Shown piece by piece: positions 2,830-63,719 of a stretch of 64,000 nucleotides of DNA. The position numbers and the translations under genes are program-made. How positions within the stretch are numbered: the first letter of the stretch is position 1; each line of letters begins with the position of its first letter. The DNA is from Daphnia carinata (taxonomy: Eukaryota). The DNA lies in the NCBI RefSeq assembly GCF_022539665.2, contig NC_081332.1, positions 1,302,001-1,366,000 of the forward strand. Reading direction: 5' to 3'. A model generated the notes under the pieces. It made no database searches. It saw only the letters and a list, made by a program, of their open reading frames with translations, and was not told the DNA's origin.

Positions 2830-4970
<2,141 letters not shown>

Positions 4971-10116: not shown

Positions 10117-10693
10117 ATGAAATTTCAAATAATTTCAGTATTAGTACGACTATTTCATCATGTTATTTTGACAATTTATTTTAATGTTATTTTTTTTTTC
10201 AGGTACTCATTTTCCTTATGGCAGGAGCAGTAAAATCAAGTAAACGTCAAAAACGTTTCATTCTTTTGAAAAGAATTCTACAGATGAACGGTGGAGGGAT
10301 TCCTCTCTCTTCCGAGACCCAGCACCTTCGTGTCCACCCATCTACATTCAACAGCAATCACAAACAGCGGCTACTCAGACACCCTACTACACTACTACAC
10401 CCACTCCTTATTATACCACAACAACCACCCCTTATTATACTACTATGCCAACCCCCTATTATACATCGCCGGCTTACAACCCTCCACCAGTATATCAGTA
10501 CACTACACCAACACCTCCGCCAGCTTACAATAAACCAACTTATCCACCAAGTAAGCCAAGATACGAACAGCTACCGACTTACCTCCAAATGCCACCAATC
10601 TACAAGCCACCTACGCCGTCCGAGCAGATTTATAATCAGCAACAACCTCCGTCATCGTACCAATCTCCACTTTTGCCACACCAAATGTTCTGA
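10117..10693 (+). CDS. Third secreted Pro/Tyr/Thr-rich gene; frame break or extra intron near 10240-10322
   Basis: TATATAAA at 10045. Exon 1 MKFQIIS (10117-10137); exon 2 from 10203 reads VLIFLMAGAVKSSKRQKRFILLK. The TPYYTTT/PPPAY-rich coding continues in a different frame to TGA at 10691-10693. Confidence 0.65.
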
Positions 10694-32918: not shown

Positions 32919-35900
32919 TTAAAATTTGATGATGCGGCGACCGAGGGATCTCAAACCGAACTTGGACTTTGTGCGGCTGTTGACTCGCGACTCGAAGCGA
33001 GCGGAAGCCGGCTTGGTTTCAGCATCGGCCGAGGTAACGACGATGGCAGCAGAGTCATCCTGCGTTTGGGGCTTTTCTTCGGCCACGTCCTTGGCATCGG
33101 CCGGGGTACCGGCGTCGTTGACGAGGATGTACTCGACTTTGCAGTCGGTGCTCTTCTTCGTCTCGTCAGCGGCTGGGTCAGCTACAACGGCTTCGGCAAC
33201 CTTTTCTTGTTCTTGTTCGACGACGACGGGTTCGGCAACCTTTTCTTGTTCTTGCTCAACAATGACGGGTTCGGCAACCTTTTCTTGTTCTTGCTCAAAG
33301 ACGACGGGCTCGGCAACCTTTTCTTGTTCCTGCTCAGCGACGACAGGTTCGGCAACCTTTTCTTGCTCTTGTTCTGCAGCAACGGGTTCGGCAGCTTTCT
33401 CCTCCTCGGCCACTACGGGTTCGGCAACCTTTTCTTGTTCTGCGGCAACGGGCTCGACAACCTTCTCCTGCTCTACAACGGCTGGTTCGGCAACCTTTTC
33501 TTCTTCAGCAACCTTCTCCTGTTCAACGGCGACGGTTTCAGCAACTTTTTCTTGCTCAACAGCAGCGGGTTCGGCTACCTTTTCCTGTTCATCGGCGACG
33601 GGCTCGGCAACGGGCTCGGCAACCTTCTCCTGTTCAACAGCAACAGGCTCGGCAACCTTCTCCTCTTCAGTGGCAACGGCTTCAGCAACCTTTTCTTGCT
33701 CAACAGCGACAGGTTCAGCTACTTTCTCCTGCTCAACTGGTTCGGCAACCTTTTCCTGTTCAGCAACCACCTCTTGTTCAGCCACAGCAGGTTCAGCAAC
33801 TTTCTCCTGTTCAGCAACGGCAGGCTCGGCAACCTTCTCTTCCTCAGCTACCACAGAGTCGGCAACTTTTTCCTGCTCAGCAACAACGGGTTCGGCAACC
33901 TTCTCCTGTTCAGCAACAACGTGCTCGGCAACCTTCTCTTGTTCAGCAACAACAGGTTCGGCAACCTTTTCTTCTTCAGCAACAACGGGCTCGGCTACCT
34001 TCTCTTGTTCAGCAACAATGGGTTCGGCAACTTTCTCCTGTTCAGCAACAACGGGCTCGGCAACCTTCTCTTCTTCAACAACAACAGGTTCGGCAACTTT
34101 CTCTTGTTCGGCAACAACGGGCTCGGCAACCTTCTCTTGTTCAGCAACAGGTTCGGCAACCTTCTCTTGTTCAACAACGGGCTCGGCAACCTTCTCTTGT
34201 TCATCAGCAACAACGGGTTCGGCAACCTTCTCTTCTTCAACAACAACGGGCTCGGCAACCTTCTCTTGTTCATCAGCAACAACGGGTTCGGCAACCTTCT
34301 CTTCTTCAACAACAACGGGCTCGGCAACCTTCTCTTCTTCAACAACAACGGGCTCGGCAACCTTCTCCTGTTCATCAGCAACAACGGGTTCGGCCACCTT
34401 CTCTTCTTCAACAACAACGGGCTCGGCAACCTTCTCTTCTTCAACAACAACGGGCTCGGCAACCTTCTCCTGTTCGACAGCCACGGTCTGCTCGATCTTC
34501 AAGTCGTCAGCGACGGGCTTTTCCACTTTGTGATCAGACTCGACGGCCTGCACCTGGGCCGGCTCTTCGACTTCCGTGGCCGTGACGCGATCGGGTATGG
34601 CGATGACAGCGGCCGGCTTCAACGACACCTGGGCGTCCCCTTGATGACCAACAGCGAGGCTGCCAGACGAAACGACAATCTCCTCGCGGTAGATCAGCGG
34701 CTGCTCAGCTGGAACTTTCACTTGCGAATCGGCCTGCGGCAATTGGACGGGCTCACCCGACTGGACCAATTCCACTTGGATCTTCTCCACCGAGTTGTCC
34801 TCGTTCGATTCGGTGGCCGTTTCCACTTTCTCGGTCGATGCGTTCTCCATCGAGTTGTCCTGTTCCTTCGAGTTGTCCACCTGCACGGGGCTCACAACTT
34901 TGGCCGGCTGGTCAGCCTCGAGGACGGCCAGGACGGTGTCTTGCTGGTCGACTTTGTTGGGCGTAGCGACGTCGGATTCGATCCACACTTCGGGTTTCTG
35001 GAAGGTCGGCGTAGCTGGGAATGGCCGCGAAGGGACCTGGACGGCGTCCTGTTCTTGAGGGACGGCCGGTGCTACTTGGATCCAGATTTCCTGTTGGCTG
35101 TCGGGATTTGGCTGGGCTTCGGCCACTGGAACAGCAGCGTCTTCTACGGGTTTCTGTTCTGTAGCTTCAATGACGGGCAGAGGGTCGACCTGGACAACGT
35201 CGGCGACGACTGGAGTCTCCTCGACAGCCACAACTGGAACAACATCTTCGACGGGCTTCTGTTCAACTTCGACGACGGGCAGAGGATCGACCTGGATGAC
35301 ATCAGCGACGACTTCCTGTGCGGGCTCTGCGACTGGAACGACGTCTTCTTCGGGTTTCTGTTCAACTTCAACGACGGGCAAAGGATCAACCTGGATAGCT
35401 ACAACTGGAACAACGTCCTCTTGGGGTTTCTGTTCCACTTCGGCGATTGGGGACAACTCGACGACTTGCTGTTCATCAGCAACTGGAACGGCCTCCTGTG
35501 CGGGCTCGACGACTGGAACAAGGTCTTCTACGGGCTTTTGTTCCACTTCGGCGACGGGCAGAGGATCGACCTGGACGACGTCAGCGACGACTGGAGTTTC
35601 AGGAACGACTTGGACGTCGGGTTCGGCAACAGCGATGATTTGTTGTTCGATGTCGGCCAGTGGATCGACGGGCACGAATTCAACGACAGCCTCGGGTTGA
35701 TTGGCGTCAGCAGAGACGACTGGAACGACGATGGCATCATCGGTTTGGCCTACTTGGAAAGCGGTTTCGGCAACTTGAACGGGTTCGTCAACGGGTTGAG
35801 CTTCAACGGTTTCAGCAACCGCGACGGGTTCCTCAACTTTGGTGGATTCGGCAACCTGATCGGCTGAAGCTGCTTCGACGGCTACCTGAACGGGTTCGGC

Positions 35901-37201
35901 AACTTGTTCGACACTGGGTTCGGCAACTTGTTCGACATTGGGTTCGGCAACCACGGCGATCGGCTGGATTTGGGCTTCGACAACGGGTTCGACGACAGCC
36001 ATTGGGGCCGGTTTGTCATCTTGGACGACTTGTTGGACCGCGACGGGCTCTTGGCTGTCGAACGACATTCCTGATGGAACAACCAACGGGCTGAGTTCGG
36101 GCTGATCGAAATCGGCCTCCGATTGGACGGCAGCCACCTGTTGAGTAGGTTCAAACTGGGCCTGTGCCACAGCGCCCAAGAATCCGTCCTGAGTGGCCGG
36201 CTCTTGCAGTTCGGGTTGCTGTTCATTTAGCTGTTGCTGCTGGGCGACGTCCGGCACGAAGTTGCCAACCAATTTGCTTAGATCGAACTCTTCTTCTTCC
36301 TGTGGTTGGTGATGATCTTCGTTGTGATCGAGCACAAGGACGACGGGTTGTTGAGCTTTCAACCCTTCGTCGGCCACGTTGGGCGCCACGACGGCGATCA
36401 CGCCCGCAGCTGTTGGCTTCTGCACCTTCCATTTTTATTCATTGCCAAAAGGTAAAGGTATTTAAACGATGTTATTATTCGATGTCGTCTATACTTTAAC
36501 AACGGTTTTTGTTTTGAACGTAAAAAAGGTCATGTTATTTCTAACATAACAATGTGCCGTAGGATAACATTCCGAATGTATACGTGCAGACGGGGCTCTT
36601 ATCAGCCACCTGTCTTTATTTTTGTTTTTTTTTTGTTTTGTTTTGTTTTTCAACGCTTTCAGGAGTTTTGACATGGACATCACGACGGTAGAAAATGAAT
36701 TTAGCCTCGAGCAATGAGAAATATGCAAAGGTGCTATTGCTCCCCCCCACCGATCGTTTGTGGTCAGTTTCAAAACTTGAATGAAAATGTTAATCTTTTT
36801 TTTTTTTTTTTTTTTTTTTTTTGTTTGGTTTTGACAGCGATCCAAATGGCCCCGGAAATTAAAAAAGTCCTTACCGGTTGAGGTGTGGCGACGTAGCGCG
36901 AGAACGGGGACCAACGGGGCCACCCGAACACGTTCGGGTAACCCGATTGGTAGCCGAGTGACGACGGGTAGCGATAAGCCGAGTAGCTGGTTGGCCTCAT
37001 GTACGGCTGATTTCGATTGTAGCCGCTGTAACTGGAATAGCCGCCGTAAGGGGAGCTGTAGTAGTCGTCGGCCGAGTAAGCAGCCGGCCCGTAATAGGAA
37101 GACGGTGGGTAATAGCCGGCCCGTTGCGGGTAATATTGGCGTTTGTACGGGGCAGCGTCGAGCGCTACCAGGACAGTAGCCAACAGAACGGCGACCTTCA
37201 T
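32919..37201 (-). CDS. Large secreted low-complexity protein (~1,280 aa): Tyr/Ser/Gly-rich head, Glu/Val/Ala/Pro repeat rod, basic tail
   Basis: Exon 37201-36875 (signal MKVAVLLATVLVALDA, Tyr-rich, donor gtaagg, phase 0) joins exon 36425-32919, which is open for 1168 codons. Confidence 0.85.
33184..34480 (-). repeat. Coding minisatellite, ~33-nt unit (EQEKVAEPVVA), roughly 40 imperfect copies
   Basis: Recurrent ggttcggcaaccttctcttgttcagcaacaac units with 30-39 nt in-frame length variants. Confidence 0.9.
35130..35610 (-). repeat. Coding repeat of ~105 nt (VVADVVQVDPLPVVEVEQKPVEDVVPVV), 4-5 copies
   Basis: QVDPLPV..VEQKP.ED repeats visible in the translation. Confidence 0.8.
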
Positions 37202-47200: not shown

Positions 47201-50105
47201 AATTTAAATGCTATTAGATCCGGCATATTAATGCAATCAGTTTTCATGGGCAGCACTTAAAGAATAGACTTAGATAATGCGCCAGCTTATAGAATCCAGC
47301 ACGAGCCCGCGATATTTCAAATTGCTTTTGTTTTTCTTCTCGATGCCTCTGAAACACATTATTTTTTTTTTTTTTTTATGCCATAAGAGGTATGTACTAA
47401 CGGTAAAAACATATAAGGATGCTGCTTAGCCATCTTTCTCTTCACTGCGGGATTTTTTTTTTTTTTTCCAGAAGTTTATTGCACACAAGAGCTATTTCCT
47501 GCCCGCTTTGGTCTTTACTGATTTATTCTTCTTCGTGCTGATCCTTTAGGCTATAAGATTCATACGTATTATACAAGTCAAGGAACAAGAAATGGCGGCG
47601 TTCTATAGTTTTTCTTTTGGTCTGGTCGTGCAGCGGTTGACGGCCGCCAAAAATTCCACCTTTGGTTCGGTGGGGTTACAACTAAACATCTCCATGGGTA
47701 TTCTCAATCTCTTGCCCATTCTTCACGGCGTCCGAGAAGACACAACGTCTCTCTTGTCCGCCCAGGTCTCCACTTACAGCCACATGTGCAGCTTTTTTAG
47801 AAATATGCTAGACACAAGAGATAGTCATTTGCATTTTAGACACTTTAGGGAGAAGGAACAACATTTAAACGTTTCTTTACCTATCGCCTATTGGTGGCTC
47901 GTCGTCAAGTGCGGTTCAAGTTGGCCATGATTGTGCATTACAAGCCGTACGCGTTTATTTTTCTTAAACGAATGCCTGAGATTTTTGAATGCGTGGCTAT
48001 CTAAATTCTATTAGGTATCTCTCTGTACAACATTGCTTTTGGCATCATAATGAGTCAGACGTACAGAGAAGGTGAATCGTCGGATAGAGGTAGACGGACC
48101 GGTTGGCTCTAATGGACGAGGAAAGTAGGGATAAGCACGGGAGAAAATGCTACATGTTTTCAAGGCCAAGTCGGTAATGACACAGCTAATTGGAGAATTG
48201 AATATTGAAACAAGGTATACTGGTACTAAAGGCACAGGACGTACGTGAAAAAGACTCTTCTCTTTCCTATTTTTAACGAATCGAAGAGTTGATTGCTTGA
48301 CTCAAAAGAGAAATAAAAGACAAAGGAGATTTAATTCTGTTTGGGTTCTCATTACTTTTTGTTTTCATTAAGGACCTAACGAAAGCCAAAGGTTTTGTTC
48401 ACAGATGGAGGCTTAACTATTTGTTTTTTTTTTTTGCTTTGCGTGAATGCAGTATCAAACAGGAGGAAAGTCGGTAGAAAAATAATTGTCATTGATGGAT
48501 TGAATTTATTTCGTGTTCAAACAAGAAGAGGAAAAACTAAAAAGGAGTTTTTTGGACATTTAACCACTTCCGTTTTTTGGCCCGACTATTTCAGTCGATA
48601 GATGGCATTGGGCTTTAATAGTGGTCGATGATTAATGATAGATGGCACCACTTCTTGCAGCAGTCGATGTTCGATGATGAAATGGAGCTAAACAAAAAAT
48701 AATTTAAAACCATTTCATTGAAGTCGAGGATTAAGATCAAATTTAAAGGCGTTCTTGTCAGAAATGGTACTTAAAAGGAAATTCATGTATATAATATGGA
48801 GCTTAGTTGAAGGTGACTCAACAGACAATATGATTTGACTAAAGGAAAAAAAAATCGGAAACCATGCTTGCATGCGTATTCGATCATGCTAAACCGTGCA
48901 TTTGATTTTTGATAAAACTGGAACCGTTTCCAGTATGGGTAAGCCCTAATTTTTTTCCCCCTTCTGAATCCTCGTTCTAGTGGCAACCCCTTGAGCTGTT
49001 TGGTTCTAGATGAGTTCAAATTTTGATTTTTAAGCAGCAATATCACAAAATTTTTAACCAGTAATACCAGTTAATCCAGAGAGTAACCATCACTTCCTTT
49101 TAATATTTCAGGTGAAAATGAAGCTCACCTATACAGGCTGTGTTGTGGGGAATCACAATTAACCAGGTTTCTGATGTTGACTGCAATTTTAACCTGTGGC
49201 AGGAATCCATATTCTTGATGTAAGTGGCTTTATCTTTTCATTCAGGTCTTCAACATTTTCTCGTCTGTGTTAATAAGATTTCCTTGAGATGACATTCATT
49301 TAGTACTATATGGCACAGCAATAAGTTATTAATTGGTTTATGGCTGCACATGCTTCATCTATCACCTGATAAATTTGGTTTAAATCAACCATAAATCTAA
49401 AGTAGTTGGATATGTTTCCTATTCAATCCATTTATTTGCATGGTGAAGAACTGTACATAATTCATAAAAAAAAGGTATAGCAAAACATTTGATTCAAAAA
49501 ACATATTTCATTCCAGTTTTTATCTTGAATCATTTGACTAAGAGCTTGTTTACATTGTCTTGGTATATGTTTTTGTGAATCATGCTACATTCACTGTTTT
49601 CAGAGACATGGCTAATGTTTAAAAATTCCTTTAATCTCTGTTTATCTTTAGACCTACTGGGCCATTCAATTACTTGGTAGTTTTTATAGCTCTATTCAAA
49701 ATTTATCAAGTTATATTTGCATACGACCCTTAAGCAACAATGGTCAGGTAGAATATTTTTAAACGATATTTACAACAATTTTGTGTTGGTTTAATGGGCG
49801 CACTTATAATTAATTATGTTCGCGTGTGTTCAGCACACACACGAATATTTACTATGAGGACATGCATTCTATTTAGTTGTGCCAATACTTGTGAAAGGTC
49901 CCAAAGTCTAATCTCGAGTGTAAATATTTGTAATAGACAGTATCTGCTATCACTGCCTGGCTCTCATAGCCCTTTTGCAATTACTGTGTGAATTTGCAGT
50001 CTGCATATGTTTAAAGAACCTGTTTAAACAAAAAAATTTATTGGATCGCTTTTATTTGCTAGACCCTCATAACCATTTGGGGAAATTATCGTCGACGTGG
50101 AGGGG

Positions 50106-50112
50106 TATAAAA
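50106..50112 (+). promoter_or_regulatory. TATA box of peptide precursor gene (same motif at 52864, 56940, 61943)
   Basis: TATAAAAGCGCATCGGTAA is conserved in all four complete copies, ~30 nt before an initiator-like TCAGCT (TCGGCT in copy 5) and 70-80 nt before the ATG. Confidence 0.8.
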
Positions 50113-50183
50113 GCGCATCGGTAACACATGCAAAATCATCAGCTACATCTCGTCGCTTCCCCTGTTCTCACCAGATATTCAAA

Positions 50184-50955
50184 ATGCGTTCGCAGTCAAC
50201 TTGTGGGTAAGTCTGCTAATTCCTTCTTTGTCTTCAAATAATTGAATTGCTCTTTAAAAAATTGTATCTGAAAGAGAAAAATTGAAACCACAGTGTAAAT
50301 GTATTCCAATCAGATTTTTAGCCCTGGTCGTTCTCGGTTGCGTATTACCGAGCATCTTGGCCGCTCCGTCGATTGCCGCAGCCGGTCATGAAGAAAATGG
50401 GCTGGAGCTTAATAATGGCAGAAACGATCCGAATGAAAATCGGGATAGCCTGGCAGTCGCATCAAAGTTGGTTCAGGTGCGTTGAAATCTTTGTCATTTT
50501 GTCTTGCAAATTTGGCAGTTATTAATTGATTAGTTTGAATTTAGTTAATGGATGGGGAGTTAAAAATTTTTTTTATGTGTAGACATTGATAATTCCTTAA
50601 ATTTCGACAGGCATACGGTAGCGATATTGCAAAGGTAGCAGCACGCGTGTGTGATAGATTAGCCTACGGAGAGACCATTGACAAGGGTAAGAATTAAGCT
50701 CAACTCGTTAACAGGATCTGAATTTCCTCATTCTTATAATAATTCGTTATAAAAGTAATGCTGGAAATAGCTAAAGAAGAGGGCATGGATAAAATTGACA
50801 TGAAACAAGTCCGTGAGATGATTGAGGTAATAGAAAACAAAAAAATATTTTCGTTATTTAAAATCCATAACCTGTATGGCCAATTTCAGAAATTTGGCTG
50901 TTCGGCAACCAAATGGACCTGCCTGCTCTGGGGAGCCGTATGCTGGGGTCGTTAA
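50184..50955 (+). CDS. Secreted two-module peptide precursor, copy 1 (type A, 132 aa)
   Basis: Exons 50184-50206, 50314-50476, 50611-50686, 50756-50826, 50890-50955: MRSQSTCGFLALVVLGCVLPSILAAPSIAAAGHEENGLELNNGRNDPNENRDSLAVASKLVQAYGSDIAKVAARVCDRLAYGETIDKVMLEIAKEEGMDKIDMKQVREMIEKFGCSATKWTCLLWGAVCWGR*. Confidence 0.85.
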
Positions 50956-52941
50956 ATTTAAATAACAACTGGTTGGAATTTCAAGACGGAAGCTGCTAAT
51001 CGACACCATTATGTTTTGATTGATAATCAATAAAAAGAGAATTTGCAAAATCAATAGTGTGTTATGTTTACAATTATTAGTTCTGCAACTTGGCGATTTA
51101 CTTTGTTTCGTACTTACAAAATCCATTTCGATTTATACGGGACCGAGGACCTAATTATAGCCAAAGGTTTCGTTCGGAGATGGAGGTTTAAATATTGTTT
51201 TTACTTTGCGAAAATGCAGTATCAAACAGGAGGAAAGTCGGTAGAAAAATAATTGTCATTGATGGATTGAATTTATTTCGTGTTCAAACAAGAAGAGGAA
51301 AAACTAAAAAGGAGTTTTTTGGACATTTAACCACTTCCGTTTTTTGGCCCGACTATTTCAGTCAATAGATGGCACTGAGCTTTAATAGTGGTCGATGATT
51401 AATGATAGATGGCACCACTTCTTGCAGCAGTCGATGTTCGATGATGAAATGGAGCTAAACAAAAAATAATTTAAAACCATTTCATTGAAGTCGAGGATTA
51501 AGATCAAATTTAAAGGCGTTCTTGTCAGAAATGGTACTTAAAAGGAAATTCATGTATATAATATGGAGCTTAGTTGAAGGTGACTCAACAGACAATATTT
51601 GATTTGACTAAAGGAAAAAAAAATCGGAAACCATGCTTGCATGCGTATTCGATCATGCTAAACCGTGCATTTGATTTTTGATAAAACTGGAACCGTTTCC
51701 AGTATGGGTAAGCCCTAATTTTTTTCCCCCTTCTGAATCCTCGTTCTAGTGGCAACCCCTTGAGCTGTTTGGTTCTAGATGAGTTCAAATTTTGATTTTT
51801 AAGCAGCAATATCACAAAATTTTTAACCAGTAATACCAGTTAATCCAGAGAGTAACCATCACTTCCTTTTAATATTTCAGGTGAAAATGAAGCTCACCTA
51901 TACAGGCTGTGTTGTGGGGAATCACAATTAACCAGGTTTCTGATGTTGACTGCAATTTTAACCTGTGGCAGGAATCCATATTCTTGATGTAAGTGGCTTT
52001 ATCTTTTCATTCAGGTCTTCAACATTTTCTCGTCTGTGTTAATAAGATTTCCTTGAGATGACATTCATTTAGTACTATATGGTACAGCAATAAGTTATTA
52101 ATTGGTTTATGGCTGCACATGCTTCATCTATCACCTGATAAATTTGGTTTAAATCAACCATAAATCTAAAGTAGTTGGATATGTTTCCTATTCAATCCAT
52201 TTATTTGCATGGTGAAGAACTGTACATAATTCATAAAAAAAAGGTATAGCAAAACATTTGATTCAAAAAACATATTTCATTCCAGTTTTTATCTTGAATC
52301 ATTTGACTAAGAGCTTGTTTACATTGTCTTGGTATATGTTTTTGTGAATCATGCTACATTCACTGTTTTCAGAGACATGGCTAATGTTTAAAAATTCCTT
52401 TCATCTCTGTTTATCTTTAGACCTACTGAGCCATTCAATTACTTGGTAGTTTTTATAGCTCTATTCAAAATTTATCAAGTTCTATTTGCATACGACCCTT
52501 AAGCAACAATGGTCAGGTAGAATATTTTTAAACGATATTTAGAACAATTGTGTTGGTTTAATGGGCGCAATTCATATTCGTGTGTGTTCAGCACAGACAC
52601 GAATATTTACTATGAGGACATGCATTCTATTTAGTTGTGCCAATACTTGTGAAAGGTCCCAAAGTCTAATCTCGAGTGTAAATATTTGTAATAGACAGTA
52701 TCTGCTATCACTGCCTGGCTCTCATAGCCCTTTTGCAATTACTGTGTGAATTTGCAGTCTGCATATGTTTAAAGAACCTGTTTAAACAAAAAAATTTATT
52801 GGATCGCTTTTATTTGCTAGACCCTCATAACCATTTGGGGAAATTATCGTCGACGTGGAGGGGTATAAAAGCGCATCGGTAACACATGCAAAATCATCAG
52901 CTACATCTCGTCGCTTCCCCTGTTCTCACCAGATATTCAAA

Positions 52942-53713
52942 ATGCGTTCGCAATCAACTTGTGGGTAAGTCTGCTAATTCCTTCTTTGTCTCCAAATAAT
53001 TGAATTGCTCTTTAAAAAATTGTATCTGAAAGAGAAAAATTGAAACCACAGTGTAAATGTATTCCAATCAGATTTTTAGCCCTGGTCGTTCTCGGTTGCG
53101 TATTGCCGAGCATCTTGGCCGCTCCGTCGATTGCCGCAGCCGTTCATGAAGAAAATGGGCTGGAGCTTAATAATGGCAGAAACGATCGGAATGAAAATCG
53201 GGATAGCCTGGCAGTCGCATCAAAGTTGGTTCAGGTGCGTTGAAATCTTTGTCATTTTGTCTTGCAAATTTGGCAGTTATTAATTGATTAGTTTGAATTT
53301 AGTTAATGGATGGGGAGTTAAAATTTTTTTTTATATGTAGACATTGATAATTCCTTAAATTTCGACAGGCATACGGTAGCGATATTGCAAAGGTAGCAGC
53401 ACGCGTGTGTGATAGATTAGCCCACGGAGAGACCATTGACAAGGGTAAGAATTAAGCTCAACTCGTTAATAGGATCTGAATTTCCTCATTCTTATAATAA
53501 TTCGTTATAAAAGTAATGCTGGAAATAGCTAAAGAAGAGGGCATGGATAAAATTGACATGAAGCAAGTCCGTGAGATGATTGAGGTAATAGAAAACAAAA
53601 AAATATTTTCGTTATTTAAAATCCATAACCTGTATGGCCAATTTCAGAAATTTGGATGTTCGGCAACCAAATGGACCTGCCTGCTCTGGGGAGCCGTATG
53701 CTGGGGTCGTTAA
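52942..53713 (+). CDS. Secreted two-module peptide precursor, copy 2 (type A)
   Basis: Same five exons as copy 1, with three replacements seen (G>V, P>R, Y>H) plus several silent changes. Confidence 0.85.
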
Positions 53714-55570
53714 ATTTAGATAATAACTGGTTGGAATTTCAAAACGGAAGCTGCTAATCGACATCATTATGTTTTGATTGATAATCAATAAAAAGAGAAT
53801 TTGCAAAATCAATAGCGTGTTATGTATACAATTATTAGTTATGCAAATTGACGATTTACGTTGGCAAGTGTTCCTTACTTACGAAATCCATTTTGATTTA
53901 TACGGGACCGAGGACCTAATTATAGCCAAAGGTTTCGTTCGGAGACGGAGGTTTAAACATTGTTTTTACTTTGCGTGAATGCAGTATCAAACAGGAGGAA
54001 AGTCAGTAGAAAACTAACTGTTACTGATGAATTGATTTTACTCCTGTTCAAAAAAGAAGGGGAAAAGCTAAAAATAATGTTTTTTTGCACATTCAACCAC
54101 TTTCTTTTTTTTGCCCGAATTTTGGCCGACAGATGGCACTGACTTCAAAGAGAGGTCGTAAATGATAGATGGCACTTTCGCTAACAGTGGCCGTTCTACG
54201 ATAATGTGAAATGTAAAATGGAGGTAAACCAAAAAGTCCCATTTCATGTAATGTCTTAAGTGTTGGATGAAATTTAAAGACGTATTATTGAACAATAGTA
54301 CTTAAAATGCATCATATGGAGCTTAGTTGAAGGTGGCAACAAAATACGTGATTTAACTAAGGGAAAAGAACTGGGAAACCATGCTTGTTATTCCATCGTG
54401 CTAAACCGTGCATTTTATTCACGATGAAACTGAAATGGTTTTCAGTGAGGGTAAGTTCTATAGGTTTTCCCTTTCTTTATCTCATTTTTGTAGCCACCCC
54501 ATGAGCTGTTAGCTTCTAGATGAGTTTACTTCTTAATTTAAAACACATGAACCTGGTTTTTGTCACAAAACTCTGTACTAATAATGCCATTCAATTCAGA
54601 AAAGCATTATCATTTCTTTCTAATATTTCAGTTGAAAACGAAGATCACCTGTACAGGCTGCGTGTGATGAATCATGACTACCATGGATTCTGTTCTGGAC
54701 TGCAGTCTTAACCATTGGCACAAATCCATATCTTGACGTAAGTGACTGGTTCATTTAAGTCTCCATTATCTTTCTATCTGTTCATAAAATTTCTTGTGAA
54801 TTTCAGAAATGACTTATATTCCTTAAGTACTATATATGCCATAGTGATATTTTATGATTTAGAATTTAAATTGTTACCTAAAAGCCTTTTGATTTTCCAA
54901 TTCAAGCAATGGTGAATCTTAAAACTAAATGGGTTTTTAAATTTTGTTCTTTTCTATTTTGCTTGAGATTGTAATCAATAGCTATAAACACTATTGTAGG
55001 AAGTAGAACAGGGTAAACACAGGAAGCATAAAACCGAAACTGTTTGAAATCGTGTGCTAAAAGAGGAAAAATAGTAATTGCGTAGTTATCCGTGGTATAT
55101 GCGTGGACCTGTCTCCTCGTGTGAACTTTAACATCATCACTGAGTCATATCTACAATTCCATAGTTATTTGGCTATGGAATTTGAACATTTGACTGTAAG
55201 GGGGTGAATCACAAATGTGCTACGTATTGTGAAACCTAAACTTAAACAGTAAAGATTTTGAGCGGCATTGGTAGTTTTTTCGTCATCGTTTGAGTTGCTT
55301 CAGTTTATGAGTCACCTGTTATCTATTTCCAATATTTAGATTGTATGCTTACAACTCACCTCTAGATAACAGTTGAGCCTTGTATATATAAGCGTAATGT
55401 ACGGAGCCTTCCCTCATCGACAGGAACGCATTCAATTGATACGGGCTCATTAGCTTATCTGGTCGAAATCGTTGTATTGTTTTCCTCCCTTAGCACCTTG
55501 CTACGTGATACCTTTTCACAAATCAAATTGTTGCTGTTCAATTTCGTCGTTATTTTAATCAATTTAAACC

Positions 55571-56256
55571 ATGGAAAAAATTCTAGCAGCAGCCGACGCA
55601 TTTGTGGGTCTTTTGGCATTTAGCTTGCAGGTAATTTCTCGTTGTTGTTAATCTCAAGTACGAGGTCATCTATATCCATGACCCTATTTTACTCACAATG
55701 TGAAAAGGTATCAGCGTTGGCGATTTATTCCAATTGGATTCCAGATGATATCGCTTCAGGCATTTGGGGAGGAATCTACCTTGTCGCCTTTGCAGCTCTA
55801 TTGGCCAGCAAAACGTCGGTTCTATTCTTCTCTTTTTAATCGAAAATTCTTTAAGTCTAACTACAATTTTAAATTAAATTATTAGATTGAAATCGAGCCA
55901 AATTGTCATGGGCATGGCGATATTCGCTTCGTTAATTGGTGCCACGTTAATAGGATTGTACTCTTGGAGTATTGATGGCTACCAAGGTTTGATTGCCGAC
56001 TGTGAATTGTATTCTAGCAATTCAACGTTGACCAATTCTACAGCAGGAGAAATGTATCCCGACATTTTCAGTCCTCCCAAAATATGTGAGTGATTTTTGA
56101 AAAATCTTTATTGACTGAATTGATATGAATATCTCTTGTGTATTGACCAACCTAGGTGACAGAGCGGCCATCGATTCTTTGATGATCATCTGTGGCATTC
56201 TGGCTGTTATCGTCAACGGTTTTATAGCTGCAACTGCTTCATCTATCACTTCATAA
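55571..56256 (+). CDS. Small four-TM CD20/MS4A-like protein (~155 aa), intact
   Basis: MEKILAAADAFVGLLAFSLQ | VSALAIYSNWIPDDIASGIWGGIYLVAFAALLASK | ..GMAIFASLIGATLIGLYSW..DC..PKI | CDRAAIDSLMIICGILAVIVNGFIAATASSITS*. It has a GIWGG motif, a Cys pair in loop 2, and intron phases 0/2/1 as in 42789-44221. Confidence 0.8.
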
Positions 56257-57016
56257 AATTTCTTTTAACTTTTCGTAAATCTTTAGAGTTCGGATTTGTT
56301 TCTATTTAATCCCATTTATCTGCATGAATATGAACTGTACCCTTATCTTTAAAAAAAGCATTGTAAACTATTTGATACGAGTGAAAAATTTCCGTTCCAA
56401 TTTTAATCTGAGCCATTAACCGAGAGTTTGTTTACACCATCTGAGTCTGACGGTTGCACATTGCGACACATTCCCTATGGTTTTAGAGGCAGAGTTTTTG
56501 TTTAAAAATTTCTTTGGATCTTTGTGTTATCTTAGCTTCAGACACATAAGGCATTTAATTACTTGATAATTTTTATTACAAGGCCAGGTAAAAAAAATGT
56601 TTCGACGATATTTCGAACAAGGACTGTTAGTGTAATTAACGTGCGTAATTAATATTCGTGTGTGGACTGAACTAGTGAGACACGCATTACGTGCGGCTGT
56701 GCCAATACTAATTTGGAACTCAAATAGCCAATTCTCGTATTGTGTAAATAGTGTAATTGGACAGTGTGTGTCTATGATACTAGCTTTCATGCCCATTTTG
56801 TGATTACTAATTGGACTCGTTACACGCGGAAAATCTGTGCGTGTTTAAAGAAACTGTTTAAACAAAGAGATTAATTGGATCTTTTTTATTTTCTAGATTT
56901 TCAGGGCCCATGTGGCCAATCATCGTCGATTTGGAGGGATATAAAAGCGCATCGGTAAGACAAGCAAATCATCAGCTACATCACGTCGCTTCTCCTGTTC
57001 TCATCAGAATTCCAAA

Positions 57017-57743
57017 ATGTATTCGCCATCAACATGTGGGTAAGTCATCAAATACTTAAGTTCGCTCAAAAATGTTTGAATTGCTGTGATAAACGTTATC
57101 TCGGAAAAAAAAAAAGTTAATTTGTTCAACGTTCAAATCAGATTTTTAGTCTTGATCGTTTTCGGATGCGTGCTACCAACAATCTTGGCCGCTCCGTCGA
57201 ATGTTGCATTTGGTCACGAAGGAAATGAACTGGCTGTTAACGATAGAAACGATTCGACCGATGTTGATGAAAACCCTTTAACCGTAGCCATGTTAGTTGC
57301 GGTGTGTTGAAATTCCATTTATCTTTTCAGTTTTTTCGTCGAATTATTTGAATTAATTCACCGTTACTGTGATTAATTTTCCATAATTTCTTGAACTTGA
57401 ACAGAGATATGGATGCCCAGTTGCCAAGGCTGCTGCTGTAGCGTGTAAGTTGTTACGCGACGGTGAAACCAACGATGAAGGTAACACTTTGGTTATGGTG
57501 ACTGACATCATCTTAATTATCTTTTTCCCAATTATTTATTGTAAAAGTTCTGTTGGAGAGATCTGGAGACGAAGACATGGATCAAATTGACATGAATAAA
57601 GTCCGTGAAATAGTTCAGGTAGTATAAATAAACATGTTCTTCACTGCAAAAACTATAACCGATACGACATTTCACCTCAGAAATACGGTTGTCCGGTAAT
57701 GAAAGCCTTCGCGTTTGCTTGCAAGCTGGTCCCCGGTAAATAA
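57017..57743 (+). CDS. Secreted two-module peptide precursor, copy 3 (type B, 130 aa)
   Basis: Exons 57017-57039, 57142-57301, 57405-57480, 57548-57618, 57681-57743: MYSPSTCGFLVLIVFGCVLPTILAAPSNVAFGHEGNELAVNDRNDSTDVDENPLTVAMLVARYGCPVAKAAAVACKLLRDGETNDEVLLERSGDEDMDQIDMNKVREIVQKYGCPVMKAFAFACKLVPGK*. Confidence 0.87.
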
Positions 57744-58528
57744 CTGGCTAGGATTTCAAAATGGGTACACTATTGATCGATAATTGTTTGCTTTCTGGTG
57801 GAGAGACAATAAAAAAGGAAATTTACACATCAATGTCGATTTTAGATATTATCAGTTCATCACAGTGATGTTGATGTGCGTTAGCAAAGATTGTTTTAAA
57901 CATCCATTGTCCAGTTTATGTTATTTGCAGGATTGGTGGATCTGCCAAAAATCTTTGAAACCACTCTAGTTAGTATGACGTTGTCGAATTCTAGGAAAGC
58001 TTGTGCAGTAGCCACTCTTCACGCTGATCATCATCGTCGTCAGGTAATATCTAAATGTTTCCTGGAATCTCTTTAATTCAAGGATTAATACGCAGTTTCA
58101 CCTTAGGGATTACCATCATTTTCACGACCGGACATCCTAGAAAACCTGTTAATGGGTTGGAAGGGATACTAATGCTGCTTTAAATACCACGCTTTTTTTC
58201 AGATTGCATCACACTCTTCTTTTAGTCAATAGCGAAGAAACAATGGGCCCGAAACGGTCTTCCGAACTAACTGACATTGTGATCGACATGATGAACAGAA
58301 CTGATTTATCCTTCTATTTCACCGGCACCATGAGGTAACTAAAAATCTTGTTTTATTATGTGAATGTCAAGTAATATATGAGCGAATCTTTGTCATTTGT
58401 CTTGCAGATTTGACACTTATTAATGGATTAGCTTGAATTTAATTAATGGATGGAGACTTAAATTTTTTTTTTTACGTTTAGACTGTTCGTAGTACGAGTG
58501 ATGTTGATAATTCCTTAAATTTCAACAG

Positions 58529-58873
58529 GCATACGGTAGCGATGTAACAAAGGTAGCAGCATGCGTATATGATAAATTAGCACACGATGGAACCATTGAA
58601 AAGTGTAAGAAAAGCTCAACTCGTTAACAGGATCTGAATTTCCTCATTCTTATAATAATTCGTTATAAAAGTAATGCTGGAAATAGCTAAAGAAGAGGGC
58701 GTGGATAAAATTGACACGAATCAAGTCCGTGAGATGATTGAGGTAATAGAAAACAAAAAACATTTTTCTTTATTAAAAATTATAAGCTGTATGGCTTTTA
58801 ATTTCAGAAATTTGGATGTTCGGCAACCAAATGGACCTGCGTCCTTTGGGCAGCTACATGCTGGGGTGGTTAA
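58529..58873 (+). pseudogene. 5'-truncated type A peptide precursor (exons 3-5 only), copy 4
   Basis: AYGSDVTKVAACVYDKLAHDGTIEK | LMLEIAKEEGVDKIDTNQVREMIE | KFGCSATKWTCVLWAATCWGG*. Homology starts inside intron 2 at ~58385, with no promoter or exons 1-2. Confidence 0.8.
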
Positions 58874-60580
58874 ATTTGAATAAAAAATGGTTGGAATTTC
58901 AAGACGGACACTGCTAATCGACGACCATTGTTTTCATTGATAATCAATAACATTAGAAATGACCAAATCAATAATCAAACAGAAAGTCAGTAGAAAAATA
59001 ATTGTCATTGATGGATGGAATTTATTCGTGTTCAAACCAAAAGCGGAAAAGCTAAAAAGGATGTTTTTTTGGACATTCAACCACTTCCGTTTTGGCCTGA
59101 CATTTCAGTCGACAGATGGCACTGAATAGGTCGAAGGTTAACGATAGATGGTACCACTTATAGTGGCCGTTCTCTGATGTGAAATGTAAAATAGAGGTAA
59201 TAAAAAAAATTCATTTCATTTAATCTCTTAGGTGGATTAGATGAAATTTAAAGACGTTTTATTGAACAATAGTATTTAAAAAGAATACTTAAGTGTATAA
59301 TGTGGAGCTTAATTGAAGATGACTCAACAGAAAACATGATTTGTTTAAGGGAAAAGAACTCGGAAACCATGCTTTTTATTCGATCGTGCTAAACCGTGCA
59401 TTTTATTCACGATGAAACTGAAACGGTTTTCAGCAAGGGTAAGTTCTATAGGTTTTCCTTTTTTTAAATCTCATTTTTGTGGCCATCCCATGAGCTGTTT
59501 TCTTCTTGATGAGTTTACTTCTTCATTTAAAGGACATGAACCTTGCTTTTGTCACAAAATTCTCTACCAATAATGCCATTTAATTCCTAGAATCATCATC
59601 GTTTCTGTCTAATACTTCAGATGAAAATGAAGCTCACCTGTTTCAGGCTGTGTGTGATGAATCATGACTACCGTGGATTCTCATCTTGAATGCAATCTTA
59701 ACCAGTGGCAGGAATCCATATTCTTGATGTAAGTGACTTTATGTTTCATTCAAATTTTCAACATCTCCCCATCTCTGATCATAATTCCCTGTGTATTTCG
59801 AAAATGATCTGATAATCATTAGGTATTTAATATTCCATAGTGATATTTTACGTTTTAGATTTAATTTGTTACCAAAAAGCCCTCTTTCTTTCCAGTTCAA
59901 GCAGTGGTGAATCTTAAAACTAAACAGGCTCTTGATTTTTGTTCTTTTCTATTTTGCTTGAGTTTTTAATTAGAAGCTATAAACCACTACTGTAGGAAGT
60001 ATAAAGGCGCAAACACGGTAAGAATAAAACCGAAACTGTTTGAAATTGTATGCTGAAAAAAGAAAAATTGTGATTGCGTAGTTATCTGTGGTTAATGCGT
60101 GGATATGTCTCCTCAGTGCCAATTTAAACATCATCATTGAATCATAGCTACAATTCCATAGTTATTTGGCTATGGAGTTTGGACATTAGACTGTAAGGGG
60201 GTTAGTAACAAATGATAACGTGTTATGAGGCCCACGTTTTAACAGTATAGATTTTGAGGGATTTTCGGGGTATGTTTTTGCGTCATAGAATCCCTTTGAG
60301 TTACAACAATTCACGAGTCACCGGTTATCTATTTCCGATATTTAGATCGTAGACTTACAACTCACCTCCAAATAACAATTTGTGCTTGTATAAATAAGCG
60401 TAATGTATGGAGCCTTCCCTCATCGACAGGGACCCAATCAATTCTTACGGGCTCATCCGCCTACCTAGCCCAAAGCGTTGCATTGTTTCCCCTGCCCCTT
60501 AGCATCTTGCTACGTGATACCTTTTCACAGACCAAATTGTTTCCGTTTCAATTTCGTCATTATTTTAATCAATTTAAACC

Positions 60581-61290
60581 ATGGAAAAAGTTCTAGCTGC
60601 AGCCGACACATTTGTGGGTCTTTTGGCATTTAGCTTGCAGGCAATTTTCCGTTGTTGTTAATCTCAAGTACGAGGTCAACTATATCGATGACCCTATTTA
60701 CTCGCAATGTGAAGCAGGTATCAGCGTTGGCGATTTATTCCAATTGGGTTCCAGACGATATCGCCTCAGGCATTTGGAGGGGGGGGATCTACCTTGTCGC
60801 TTTTGCAGTTCTATTGGCCAGCAAAAAGTCCGTTCTATTCTTTTCTTTTGAATTGAAGAATCTAAAGTCTAACTACAATTTTTAAATTAAATTATTAGAT
60901 TGAAATCAAGCCAAATTGTCATGGGCATGGCGGTATTCGCTTCTTTAATTGGTGCCACGGTAATAGGATTGTACTCTTGGAGTATTGATGGCTACCAGGG
61001 TTTGATTGCCGACTGTGAATTGTATTCTAGCAATTCAACGTTGACCAATTCTACAACAGGAGAAATGTATCCCGACATTTTCAGTCCTCTCAAAATATGT
61101 GAGTGATTTTTGAAAAATCTTTATTGACTGAATTGATATGAATATCTCTTGTGTATTGAACAACACCAGTGACAGAGCGGCCATCGATTCTTTTGTGTTC
61201 ATCTGTGGCATTCTGGCTTTTATTGCCAACGGGTTTCTAGCTGAATGGCTTGAATCATCACTTCGTAACATTTATTTTAACCTTTCGTAA
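60581..61290 (+). pseudogene. Decaying duplicate of the MS4A-like gene at 55571
   Basis: Intron 1 donor GT>GC (60641), GIWGG>GIWRGG insertion, last acceptor cctagGT>accagT (1-nt frame loss), and an altered 3' end. Confidence 0.65.
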
Positions 61291-62012
61291 ATTTTTAGAG
61301 TTCGGATTTGTTTCTATTTAATCCCATTTATCTGCGTGAATATTAGCTATACATTAATCTTTTAAAAAAACATTGTAAACTTTTTGATTTGAGTGAAAAA
61401 TTCCGTTCCAGTTTTAGTCTGAGCTATTTAACTGAGAGTTTGTTTACGTTATCTCAGTCTGACGGTTGCACATTGCGACCCATTCCCTATGGTTTTAGAC
61501 GCATCGTTTTTGTTTAAAAATTTCGTTTTTTCTTTGTGTTATCTTAGCCTCAGACACACTAGGCATAAAATTACTCGATAATTTTATTACAAGGCCAGGT
61601 AAATATGTTTTGACGAAATTTCGAACCAGCTGTGTTAGTTTAACATGCGTACTTAATATTCGTGTGTAGCCTGAACTATCGAGATACACCTTATGTTCGA
61701 CAGTGCTAATACTCATTTGGAACTCAAATAGCCAATTCTCGTATTATGTACATAGTGTCATTGGATAGTGTGTGTCTATGCTACTAGCTTTCATAGCCAT
61801 TCGTGATTACTATTTGGACTCGTTACACGCGGAAAATCTGTACGTGTTTTCAGAAACTGTTTAAACACAAAAATTAATTGGATCTTTTTTATTTCCTAGA
61901 ATTTCACGTACCATATGGCCAATCGTCGTCAATTTGTAGGGATATAAAAGCGCATCGGTAACACAAGCAAAATCATCGGCTACATCTCGTCGCTTCTCAT
62001 CAGAATTCCAAA

Positions 62013-62728
62013 ATGCGTTCGCAGTCAGCTTGTGGGTAAGTCTGCTAATTCCTTCTTGCTTCGAAATAATTGAATTGCTTTTTAAAAAATTGCATCTAAA
62101 AGAGAGAAATTAACGCTTCAGTGTAAATGTATTCCATTCAGATTTTTAGTCTTGGTTGTTCTCGGTTGCGTGCTACCAACAATCTTTGCCGCTACGTCGA
62201 ATATTGCATACGGTCACCAAGAAAACGAACTGGCAGTTAACGATAGAAACGATTTGACTGACGTCGATGAAAACGCGTTGATAGCGTTTATAATTAAGGT
62301 GTGTTGAAATTTCATTTGTCTTTTCAATTTATTCGTCGAATTATTTGAATTCATTAATGGTTACTACGATTAATATTCCATAATTTCGTTCATTTGAGCA
62401 GAAATTTGGATGCGCCGCGGTCAGAGCTGCTGCTACAGCGTGTAAGTTGATACGCAACGCTGAAATCAATGATGAAGGTAACACTTTAGTTATGCTGGCT
62501 GACAGCATCTTAATTATCTTTTTTCTCATTATTTATTGTAAAAGTTCTGCTCGAGAGATCTGGTGACGAATCTATGGACCAAATTGACATGAATGCCGTG
62601 GATTTAGCTAAGGTAGGATAAACAAACATGTTCTTCATTGCAAAAACTATAGCTGATACGGCATTTCATTTCAGAAATACGGTTGTAGGATAGTAAAACT
62701 CTTGGCGAAGGCTTGCAAGATAATCTAG
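62013..62728 (+). CDS. Secreted two-module peptide precursor, copy 5 (type B, 125 aa)
   Basis: Exons 62013-62035, 62142-62298, 62402-62477, 62545-62612, 62675-62728: MRSQSACGFLVLVVLGCVLPTIFAATSNIAYGHQENELAVNDRNDLTDVDENALIAFIIKKFGCAAVRAAATACKLIRNAEINDEVLLERSGDESMDQIDMNAVDLAKKYGCRIVKLLAKACKII*. Confidence 0.87.
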
Positions 62729-63199
62729 TAAATAAGTGGCTACGATTTCAGGATGGGTACTTTATTGATCGATAATCGTTTGTGTTCTGGTGGAGAGGCA
62801 ATAAAAAGGGAATTTGCATATCAATGTCGATGTTATATGTTTCCAGTTCATCAAAGTGGTGTTGATGTGCGTCAACAAAGATTTTTCTAAAATCCGTTGT
62901 CCAGTTTACATTATTTGCAGGATTGGTGAAACTGCCGAAGGTCCTTGAAATCATTCTAGTAAGTATTACGTCATCGAATTCTAGGAAAGCATATGCAGTA
63001 GCCACTCTTAACGCTGATCATCAGTGTCATCTGGTAATATCTAAATGTTTCTTGGAATCTCATTAATTCAAGGATTAATAAGCAGATTCACCTTAGGGAC
63101 TACCATCATTATCACGACCGGACTTCCTAGCAAACCCATTAATGGGATGGGGATACTAAGGGATGCTAAGTTTGATTTAAATACTACGTCATTTTTCAG

Positions 63200-63719
63200 A
63201 ATGTATCACACTCTTCTTCCAGCCAACAACAAAGAAACAATGGGTCAAAAGCAGTCTTCTTCTCTAACTGACATCGAAATCGACATGATGAATAGAACTG
63301 ATTTATCCTCCCATTTCACCAGCACCATGAGGTAACTAACAATTTTGTTTTTATTATTGTGAATGTCAAGTAATTTAACAAATTTCATTTTTAGCAGTTC
63401 CTATCAGCCGGATGAATGTTTTCATTGCGGGGCCAGATTGGAAGACAATATCTTATTTGATTCGAGCAGAGGAAAATCATCTGGAGACATTTCGGCTGTC
63501 CGATGTCGTCCGTGTCGCATTTGTCAGTCGACAAATGTCATCTTGGTGAAATTCCGAGAGGTTACCACGTCATGCCGTCGTTCTTTTCGAAGTCATCCCA
63601 CTGCTGATACAGAATCACAACCTTTCAGTTTAAATGGTAATCACAATAACATGCACCATGCAACATCACATAACCGGACCCAGCCCTCACATGATGGAGG
63701 AGTTTCTACGTTTCTTTAA
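63200..63719 (+). other. Two in-frame exons of an unidentified gene or gene fragment with CxxC...CxxC
   Basis: Exon 63200-63331 (phase 2) joins 63395-63719: ..PDECFHCGARL...CRPCRICQS... The first exon is duplicated at 58203-58334. Upstream exon-like pieces contain stops. Confidence 0.4.

What the first reader, a model, noticed from the sequence alone, without database searches (positions are those of the whole stretch)
50184..62728. Tandem family of prepropeptides carrying two cationic amphipathic Cys-containing peptides: candidate undescribed antimicrobial/membrane-active peptide system
Seen: five copies of a gene split into exons too small for the ORF track to assemble. Each complete copy encodes a signal peptide, an acidic spacer, module 1, a second acidic spacer and module 2. 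Type B modules are ALIAFIIKKFGCAAVRAAATACKLIR (+5), AVDLAKKYGCRIVKLLAKACKII (+5), PLTVAMLVARYGCPVAKAAAVACKLLR (+4) and KVREIVQKYGCPVMKAFAFACKLVP-GK (+4), all with (Y/F)GC-x9-C. Three copies end in Gly-Arg or Gly-Lys. Between copies 3 and 5 the signal and spacers stay similar while the modules diverge. Known: an acidic propiece with a cationic amphipathic peptide, a C-terminal amidation Gly, and tandem birth-and-death evolution are hallmarks of animal AMP and venom-peptide precursors. As I recall, homology surveys of Daphnia found no classical AMPs. Inference: these are host-defence peptides. I recognise no named family.
Basis: partly seen in the sequence, partly recalled or inferred. Interest (0 to 1): 0.9.

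Follow-up and report, generated by a model that had tools for sequence, protein, structure and literature searches.

The report
Undescribed Daphnia two-module secreted peptide family
Water fleas, which are said to have no antimicrobial peptides, carry a Daphnia-only family of small tandem genes whose relatives are very highly expressed, and one subtype is laid out like a sea-urchin antimicrobial precursor, so it likely yields a disulfide-linked two-chain antimicrobial peptide, though processing and activity are untested.

Summary
The genes are real. Four complete five-exon copies and one 5'-truncated copy lie at 50184-62728. Three spliced copies match RefSeq Daphnia carinata 'uncharacterized' proteins. 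Relatives were found only in Daphnia (five species), with no Pfam, PDB or literature name.

There are two subtypes. Type A (copies 1, 2, 4; all D. magna members) is near neutral, has one Cys in module 1 and three in module 2, and a variable, usually Trp-bearing tail.

All 15 full-length proteins keep four Cys, so type A likely needs a bond between modules. The product is therefore more likely one linked unit than two free peptides. 16 of 17 end in an amidation-type Gly.

The layout matches sea-urchin centrocin precursors without detectable homology. D. magna type A genes are very abundant (400-1,800 CPM), are not induced by fungal exposure, and fall about 2.4-fold in infected animals.

Verdict: an undescribed family, likely constitutive host-defence peptides (about 0.6). 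Cleavage, disulfide pairing and activity are not shown.

The parts
50184..50955 (+). Copy 1, type A, complete. Exons 50184-50206, 50314-50476, 50611-50686, 50756-50826, 50890-50955; 132 aa; ends GR
   Evidence: TATA at -78 and AATAAA at +74
52942..53713 (+). Copy 2, type A, complete (same protein as RefSeq LOC130685966, P0016). Exons 52942-52964, 53072-53234, 53369-53444, 53514-53584, 53648-53713
   Evidence: 3 amino-acid differences from copy 1, none in the modules
57017..57743 (+). Copy 3, type B, complete (RefSeq LOC130685968, P0001). Exons 57017-57039, 57142-57301, 57405-57480, 57548-57618, 57681-57743; 130 aa; ends GK
57275..57458 (+). Copy 3 module 1 (residues 53-79, split by intron 2): helix, YG kink, helix with C-x9-C; +4; ends at the Arg conserved in type B
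   Evidence: boundaries inferred
57459..57591 (+). Copy 3 acidic interchain linker (about residues 80-101, split by intron 3), net -8, fixed length across the family
   Evidence: dN/dS 0.22 against copy 5
57592..57740 (+). Copy 3 module 2 (about residues 102-130, split by intron 4): helix, YG kink, helix with C-x9-C; +3 to +4; amidation-type GK end
   Evidence: start inferred
58385..58873 (+). Copy 4, type A, 5'-truncated: part of intron 2 plus exons 58529-58604, 58672-58742, 58808-58873; no promoter or signal exons; likely a pseudogene
   Evidence: degenerate poly(A) signal at +73
62013..62728 (+). Copy 5, type B, complete (RefSeq LOC130685969, P0003). Exons 62013-62035, 62142-62298, 62402-62477, 62545-62612, 62675-62728; 125 aa; the most cationic copy and the only one without a terminal Gly
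62275..62455 (+). Copy 5 module 1 (residues 53-78), +5
62595..62725 (+). Copy 5 module 2 (residues 103-125), +5 (+4 from the conserved Asp)
48371..54793 (.). Young tandem duplication, period about 2.76 kb (48371-52051 vs 51146-54793, 91% overall, 98% over the gene), holding copies 1 and 2
53986..63377 (.). Older tandem duplication, period about 5.0 kb (53986-58378 vs 58974-63377, 83%), holding copies 3 and 5 and a co-duplicated hydrophobic membrane-type gene

Best explanation
These are tandem copies of a Daphnia-only gene family whose predicted secreted precursors likely yield a constitutive host-defence peptide made of two helical chains that are likely joined by disulfides, as in sea-urchin centrocins. 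SHOWN: gene structure, two modules from one internal duplication, four conserved Cys, a conserved terminal Gly, alternating acidic and cationic blocks in type B, and high expression of D. magna type A relatives. INFERRED: the signal peptide (residues 1-24) sends the precursor into secretion. The acidic pro-segment and interchain linker mask the cationic helices and hold the modules in register while the disulfides form. The simplest pairing is nested (C1-C4, C2-C3). It fits both subtypes: type A keeps C2-C3 at the same 38-residue spacing, and having lost C1 it closes a small C-terminal ring instead. In type B, cuts at the Arg after module 1 and within the linker would release a two-chain peptide of about +6 to +10 with an amidated end, which would bind and permeabilise microbial membranes. 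Type A lacks those Arg residues and is near neutral. It likely stays a single folded chain that displays a variable, hydrophobic, amidated ring, so it may act on other targets. My separate odds: host-defence or membrane-active function 0.6; at least one inter-module disulfide 0.75; type B linker excised 0.6.
For: Four Cys in the mature part of 15 of 15 full-length proteins: 2+2 in 6 type B, 1+3 in 9 type A. Cys-x38-Cys across the linker in 14 of 15, x37 in copy 5. Both structure predictions put a continuous helix across module 1's second half (H65-80, H66-80), which would hold the two Cys of a C-x9-C motif too far apart to pair with each other (models weak, mean pLDDT 55-58). Arg four residues after the last Cys of module 1 in 6 of 6 type B; charge segregation in 5 of 6 type B. 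G, GK or GR end in 16 of 17 proteins. Copy 3 vs 5: dN 0.40 in modules against 0.12 elsewhere, with non-modules under purifying selection (p=0.001). Centrocin precursors are 119-121 aa and acidic: 20-aa signal, 30-aa pro-segment, 30-32-aa chain, conserved 24-aa interchain that is removed, 15-aa chain, Gly-Arg, with variable chains (PMC4805251, passages). The lengths here are about 24, 28, 27, 22, 27 and G/GK/GR. D. magna relatives reach about 800-1,800 CPM (PMC10253896 supplement) and 415-638 CPM in controls (PMC13587834 supplement); from my own knowledge, unusually high for whole-body neuropeptide transcripts.
Against: No activity, peptidomic or tissue data exist in what I could read. The D. 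magna homologue is unchanged after fungal exposure (log2FC +0.19, p=0.6) and lower in infected animals (log2FC -1.26, p=0.014; my normalisation on 24 genes, n=3-4). No consensus kappa-B site upstream. Type A, which is 3 of 5 copies here and every D. magna member found, is not cationic, and all expression data concern type A. Module dN/dS of 1.33 is not significantly above 1 (p=0.54). No dibasic sites; the single Arg residues are only candidates, and no conserved basic residue sits directly before either module. The linker has no indels, is constrained and is predicted partly helical, as a retained domain would be. Module 2 is strongly conserved between orthologues, which also fits a receptor ligand or a structural protein.
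Confidence: 0.45

Rival explanations
1. The linker is not removed. The mature product is one compact helical protein of about 75-80 residues with two disulfides that binds lipids or membranes as saposin-like proteins do (lipid handling, digestion of ingested microbes, or pore formation at low pH).
For: The linker has no gaps in any of 11 pairwise comparisons while spacer 1 varies in length. It is the most constrained region between subtypes (dN/dS 0.08 at saturated dS). Type A is modelled with pLDDT 69-79 over residues 61-110, linker helix included. Type A lacks the candidate Arg sites (0 of 9) and has mixed charge. Saposin A, saposin C and the AOAH saposin domain appear among 82 weak Foldseek rows and align end to end over model residues 58/62-126.
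Against: Those matches are at chance level: E 6-8, Z 2.7-3.5, rmsd 3.9-4.8, below unrelated rows. Four Cys, not the six that define SAPLIPs. Centrocins also keep a conserved fixed-length interchain and remove it. The type B linker is -5 to -8 and Arg-flanked.
Confidence: 0.23
2. One reading: each module is released as a separate cationic peptide closed by its own C-x9-C loop, as in bombinin-type precursors that carry two peptides.
For: Each type B module has its own Cys pair, and the modules are duplicates. The top ESM Atlas feature hit for copy 3 is a bombinin precursor cluster at 0.78, which is under the tool's bar and only a lead.
Against: Type A has one Cys in module 1 and three in module 2 in 9 of 9 proteins, so both modules would carry a free Cys. 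The predicted helix separates the C-x9-C pair. Fixed Cys-to-Cys spacing across the linker would not be needed.
Confidence: 0.12
3. A non-immune abundant secretion: a hormone-like or pheromone-like ligand, or a cuticle, gland or brood-chamber product, using the same precursor logic as insulin-type two-chain peptides.
For: No induction by fungal exposure and no significant change under flumequine (FDR >= 0.21 in 6 of 6 rows). Strong orthologue conservation of module 2. Amidation and a C-x6-C ring also occur in signalling peptides (recalled).
Against: Expression is very high for a hormone. No dibasic sites. Rapid paralogue turnover, with divergence focused on the modules and on the last exon in D. 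magna paralogues. No relatives outside Daphnia.
Confidence: 0.2

Closest known systems
Centrocins (sea-urchin two-chain antimicrobial peptides; PMC4805251 passages; PMC11767717 passages)
   Same: Acidic precursor of about 120-130 aa: signal, pro-segment, chain 1, conserved interchain of about 22-24 aa, chain 2, terminal Gly(-Arg/Lys). Chains variable, spacers conserved. Cys in both chains.
   Different: No echinoderm protein among the hits of any homology search. Four Cys rather than one interchain disulfide. Two duplicated, equal-sized modules rather than a heavy and a light chain. A near-neutral subtype exists. No activity shown.
Halocidin and dicynthaurin (tunicate disulfide-linked helical dimers; PMC11767717 passages)
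   Same: Two amphipathic helices linked covalently through Cys.
   Different: One disulfide, shorter chains, no detected sequence relationship.
Bombinin-type precursors (Pfam PF05298; Atlas lead at 0.78)
   Same: Signal, acidic spacers and two cationic peptides in one precursor (layout recalled).
   Different: No Pfam PF05298 match. Conserved Cys here. The Atlas score is within what shuffled proteins reach.
Saposin-like proteins (SAPLIPs; PMC5890168 passages)
   Same: Small, secreted, all-helical, disulfide-bonded, similar mature size if uncleaved.
   Different: Four Cys instead of six; no SapB Pfam match; structural similarity only at chance level.
Hairpin Loop Peptides (PMC13357843, first of 7 parts and passages), a predicted antimicrobial family that occurs in Daphnia
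   Same: Secreted, two helices with nested disulfides, found in Daphnia, activity only predicted.
   Different: About 85 aa, six mirrored Cys, almost uncharged, mature start GP, fungal relatives. None of these holds here, and the Daphnia accessions listed there are different proteins.

Membership tests
Centrocins | Precursor order signal / pro / chain / about 24-aa interchain / chain / Gly-Arg | tested here: met
   Same order and similar lengths in type B; the boundaries here are inferred
Centrocins | One Cys per chain, a single interchain disulfide | tested here: not met
   Four Cys, 2+2 or 1+3, in 15 of 15
Centrocins | Sequence homology to echinoderm centrocin precursors | tested here: inconclusive
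   No echinoderm hit; no direct pairwise comparison was possible, and short peptides escape such searches
Centrocins | Interchain excised; antibacterial activity; brominated Trp | not testable with these tools
   Needs peptidomics and assays
Cationic amphipathic antimicrobial peptides (general class) | Net positive, amphipathic mature region masked by an acidic pro-region | tested here: inconclusive
   Met for type B (modules +2 to +5, segregation p<0.03 in 5 of 6), not met for type A (0 of 9); hydrophobic moments modest
Cationic amphipathic antimicrobial peptides (general class) | Induction by microbial challenge or kappa-B control | tested here: not met
   No consensus site in 4 of 4 promoters within 500 bp; one D. 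magna type A gene not induced by one fungus at day 12. Many such peptides are constitutive, and type B and bacterial challenge are untested
SAPLIP / saposin-like | Six conserved Cys, three disulfides | tested here: not met
   Four Cys against the definition read
SAPLIP / saposin-like | Saposin fold | tested here: inconclusive
   Weak models; Z 3.5 (rmsd 4.8, 65 aligned) to saposin A and Z 3.2 (rmsd 4.1, 58 aligned) to saposin C, below unrelated rows
Hairpin Loop Peptides | Six mirrored Cys, about 85 aa, nearly uncharged, mature start GP | tested here: not met
Bombinin precursors (PF05298) | Match to the Pfam model | tested here: not met
   No match
Classical neuropeptide precursors | Dibasic convertase sites flanking the peptides | tested here: not met
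   Only single Arg residues in the spacers; KK pairs fall inside modules

The most novel reading that the evidence does not exclude
This is the missing antimicrobial effector family of Daphnia: a lineage-specific, constitutively abundant precursor that independently arrived at the centrocin design but releases two duplicated helical chains cross-linked by two disulfides (type B). A derived type A has re-routed one disulfide into a hypervariable, hydrophobic, amidated C-terminal ring that is swapped among paralogues and alternative last exons to change target range. Its drop during fungal infection would reflect suppression by the parasite.
Probability: 0.3. Interest if true: 0.9.

Novelty: new variant of a known kind. 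Interest (0 to 1): 0.72.

Why it matters
Daphnia is a leading model for host-parasite coevolution and microbiome work. [quoted passage not shown] This family gives named, highly expressed candidates in D. magna and D. pulex with concrete predictions (masses, disulfide map, amidation) that can be tested in weeks. If right, it closes that gap and adds a doubly cross-linked two-chain scaffold. If wrong, it is still one of the more abundant unexplained transcripts of the animal.

Tried and rejected
No whole genome is held for this window. No RNA holder was listed for 56900-63000, so no reads could be laid; this is no evidence on expression. Complex prediction of module 1 with module 2 gave no answer (score 0.10 against a mark of 0.34, alignment not used, controls not folded); it is no evidence either way.

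Fold searches with two weak models found no family. Foldseek gave no match at E<=0.001. VIA best Z was 4.8 and 5.5, to winged-helix and TetR-type helix bundles; the second looks added nothing. PDB sequence search gave three chance rows, then none. Pfam gave nothing above a curated cut-off; DUF732 recurs in type A at E 0.01-0.1, below its cut-off. The Atlas search on the type A mature part gave no usable hit.

Two metagenome scans found no locus. Earlier scan findings: none. Twelve accession numbers of family members occur in 0 papers. Supplements of PMC11331620 and PMC9375365 were tiny and held no member. Two Daphnia single-cell preprints do not name the genes in their main text; their supplements are closed and may hold the tissue of expression. 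The differential-expression sheets of PMC13587834 lie beyond the stored cut.

Positive selection on the modules was tested and not shown: p=0.54 against module dS, p=0.64 against gene dS. It is significant only against introns (p=0.004), which may be constrained. The profile self-comparison was uninformative.

Rows left out of counts: P0008, P0009, P0010, P0022 (fragments or intron-retaining models), P0011 (bacterial repeat protein, chance), P0023 (shares only the N-terminus), and also P0007 and P0012 (near-duplicates with one extra residue).


Full report
OBSERVATION. The region 50184-62728 holds five related gene copies on the + strand. Splicing by coordinates gives four complete five-exon genes with GT-AG introns of 62-134 nt and phases 2,0,1,0, plus a fifth (copy 4) with only exons 3-5. 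Spliced copies 3 and 5 equal RefSeq proteins XP_057365259.1 and XP_057365260.1 of Daphnia carinata letter for letter, and copy 2 reads the same as LOC130685966. An independent annotation therefore gives the same models; the evidence behind those RefSeq models was not visible to me. All four complete copies have TATAAAA at -70 to -78 and AATAAA 65-74 nt after the stop. The copies arose by two nested tandem duplications with periods of about 2.76 and 5.0 kb.

FAMILY RANGE. A word-based search, a full phmmer scan of 1.84 billion representatives (8 hits at E<=0.001, one a chance bacterial repeat) and a profile search (18 hits at E<=10) found named members only in D. carinata, D. sinensis, D. magna, D. 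pulex and D. pulicaria, plus four unnamed fragments or intron-retaining models. All are labelled uncharacterized, hypothetical or 'secreted protein'. No Pfam family passes its cut-off. Twelve accession numbers occur in 0 papers of the library, and topic searches listed no description of the family. Subscription journals are mostly outside that library.

ANATOMY. Each protein has a hydrophobic N-terminus ending near residue 24 (signal peptide inferred; no predictor was available), a first spacer of variable length, module 1, a linker, and module 2. The modules are an internal duplicate: 14 of 23 residues are identical in copy 3 (shuffle p=0.0005; p<=0.001 in 6 of 6 type B), and a phase-0 intron precedes the (Y/F)G kink in both. 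Both AlphaFold models show helix-kink-helix modules with low overall confidence (mean pLDDT 55 and 58). The tree splits the family into two subtypes with 100/100 support.

TYPE B (copies 3 and 5; D. sinensis, D. pulex, D. pulicaria). C-x9-C in both modules, module charges +2 to +5, linker -5 to -8, an Arg four residues after the last Cys of module 1 in 6 of 6, and charge segregation beyond shuffles in 5 of 6.

TYPE A (copies 1, 2, 4; all D. magna members). One Cys in module 1 and three in module 2 (spacings 6/6, 9/6 or 6/2), no such Arg in 9 of 9, module charges -3 to +3, and no charge segregation (0 of 9). D. magna paralogues are nearly identical up to the last exon and differ there, and RefSeq lists isoforms with different last exons.

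CYSTEINES. All 15 full-length proteins analysed keep four Cys in the mature part, and the Cys at the end of module 1 lies 38 residues (37 in copy 5) from the Cys at the kink of module 2. In a secreted protein an odd number of Cys per module implies a bond between modules or between molecules (inference). A nested pairing explains both subtypes with one change: type A keeps the inner bond and replaces the outer bond with a terminal ring. The predicted helix between the two Cys of each C-x9-C also argues against local loops. No tool returned the pairing itself.

C-TERMINUS. 16 of 17 proteins end in G, GK or GR although the preceding residues differ; several rows are near-duplicates. From established knowledge, and as shown for a centrocin, this is an amidation signal. 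Copy 5 is the exception.

EVOLUTION. Copy 3 against copy 5: dN 0.40 in modules and 0.12 elsewhere; 27 of 51 against 16 of 74 residues changed (p=0.0005); linker dN/dS 0.22; module dN/dS 1.33, not significantly above 1. Between orthologues the pattern reverses: the second half of module 2 is 16/16 identical with D. sinensis and 13/16 with D. pulex, whose signal is 8/21; in type A it is 13/13 between copy 2 and a D. magna gene. So each paralogue's modules are maintained by selection while paralogues diverge from each other.

EXPRESSION (relatives only, type A only). In PMC10253896 (supplement rows and methods passages; 21-day adults, brood pouch emptied) three D. magna members have logCPM 10.8, 9.7 and 10.4, about 1,800, 800 and 1,300 CPM, with no significant change under flumequine. 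In PMC13587834 (supplement rows and passages) APZ42_012653 has 7,204-14,596 reads in 4 controls, 11,365-13,642 in 3 exposed-uninfected and 2,584-5,986 in 4 Metschnikowia-infected animals. With my normalisation on 24 genes from the same page: exposed vs control log2FC +0.19 (p=0.6), infected vs control -1.26 (p=0.014). Reads of close paralogues may be pooled, the sample is one late time point, and the authors' own test lay beyond the stored part of the file. The family is spliced into abundant mRNA in D. magna by these counts, but behaves as constitutive. No consensus kappa-B site lies in the 500 bp upstream of the four complete copies.

MECHANISM. The best reading is a constitutive host-defence precursor. 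The closest proven design is the centrocin precursor: signal 20, pro 30, chain 30-32, conserved interchain 24 that is removed, chain 15, Gly-Arg, with chains far more variable than spacers (PMC4805251 passages). Type B matches this part by part. That precedent also weakens the argument that a conserved fixed-length linker must be retained. I infer that type B is cut to a doubly linked, cationic, amidated two-chain peptide that acts on microbial membranes, and that type A stays single-chain with a variable hydrophobic ring. The main rival is a retained single helical domain with saposin-like lipid binding. It fits type A's structured, mixed-charge linker, but the saposin rows in the fold search are at chance level and the six-Cys pattern is absent. 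A non-immune secretion remains possible.

MEMBERSHIP AND NOVELTY. It works like a centrocin-type precursor, if the inference holds, but is not a member: four Cys, duplicated chains, no detected homology. It is not a Hairpin Loop Peptide, a bombinin or a SAPLIP by the features tested. It is an undescribed lineage-specific family using a known kind of precursor. The genome survey of D. pulex could not recover antimicrobial peptides (PMC2685406 passages), and a 2025 preprint repeats that none are known (passages); predicted Hairpin Loop Peptides in Daphnia were reported in 2026 without experiments. PMC4551569 (passages) names no member.

VERDICT. Observation partly confirmed, interpretation partly supported. 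Interest 0.72: it makes a standing question in a major model directly testable, but function rests on layout and analogy, and the only infection data show no induction.

Noticed in passing
window 55571-56256 and 60581-61270 (+): A small multi-exon gene with several hydrophobic segments is co-duplicated in the 5-kb unit upstream of copies 3 and 5. No Pfam match above cut-off for the exons tried. The second copy looks frameshifted near 60780 (a G run) and lacks the usual GT donor near 60641. Partial relics may lie in the 2.76-kb units.
   Followed up: partly
window 16062-17665 (+) and D. pulex protein P0023: P0023 (DAPPUDRAFT_325519) joins this family's N-terminus (37 of 50 identical to the D. 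pulex member) to a body resembling a DUF4789-like gene 33 kb upstream in this window (35% over 176 aa; Pfam DUF4789 at E 0.003, below cut-off). It is either a chimeric gene model or exon shuffling.
   Followed up: partly
window 58529-58604 (+), copy 4: The single module 1 Cys is lost and a new Cys appears two residues upstream, so the truncated copy still has four Cys in exons 3-5. Its dN/dS against copy 2 is 0.61.
   Followed up: partly
D. magna proteins P0006, P0020, P0021: These lack the first helix of module 1, and two RefSeq isoforms share all but the last exon, which suggests alternative last exons or paralogue exon swapping.
   Followed up: no
window 57894-58354 and 62884-63716 (+): A duplicated stretch downstream of copies 3 and 5 with short open frames and a Cys-rich 118-aa frame at 63363-63719; no Pfam match.
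   Followed up: partly
window 32919-36434 (-): A 1,171-aa open frame made largely of acidic Glu/Val/Ala/Pro repeats; no Pfam match.
   Followed up: partly
window 7181-7576 (-), 8534-9175 (+), 10185-10718 (+): A cluster of small secreted-looking proteins with a Lys-Arg site followed by a short basic, aromatic, Gly-rich segment and Pro/Tyr-rich repeats; one exon tested had no Pfam match.
   Followed up: partly
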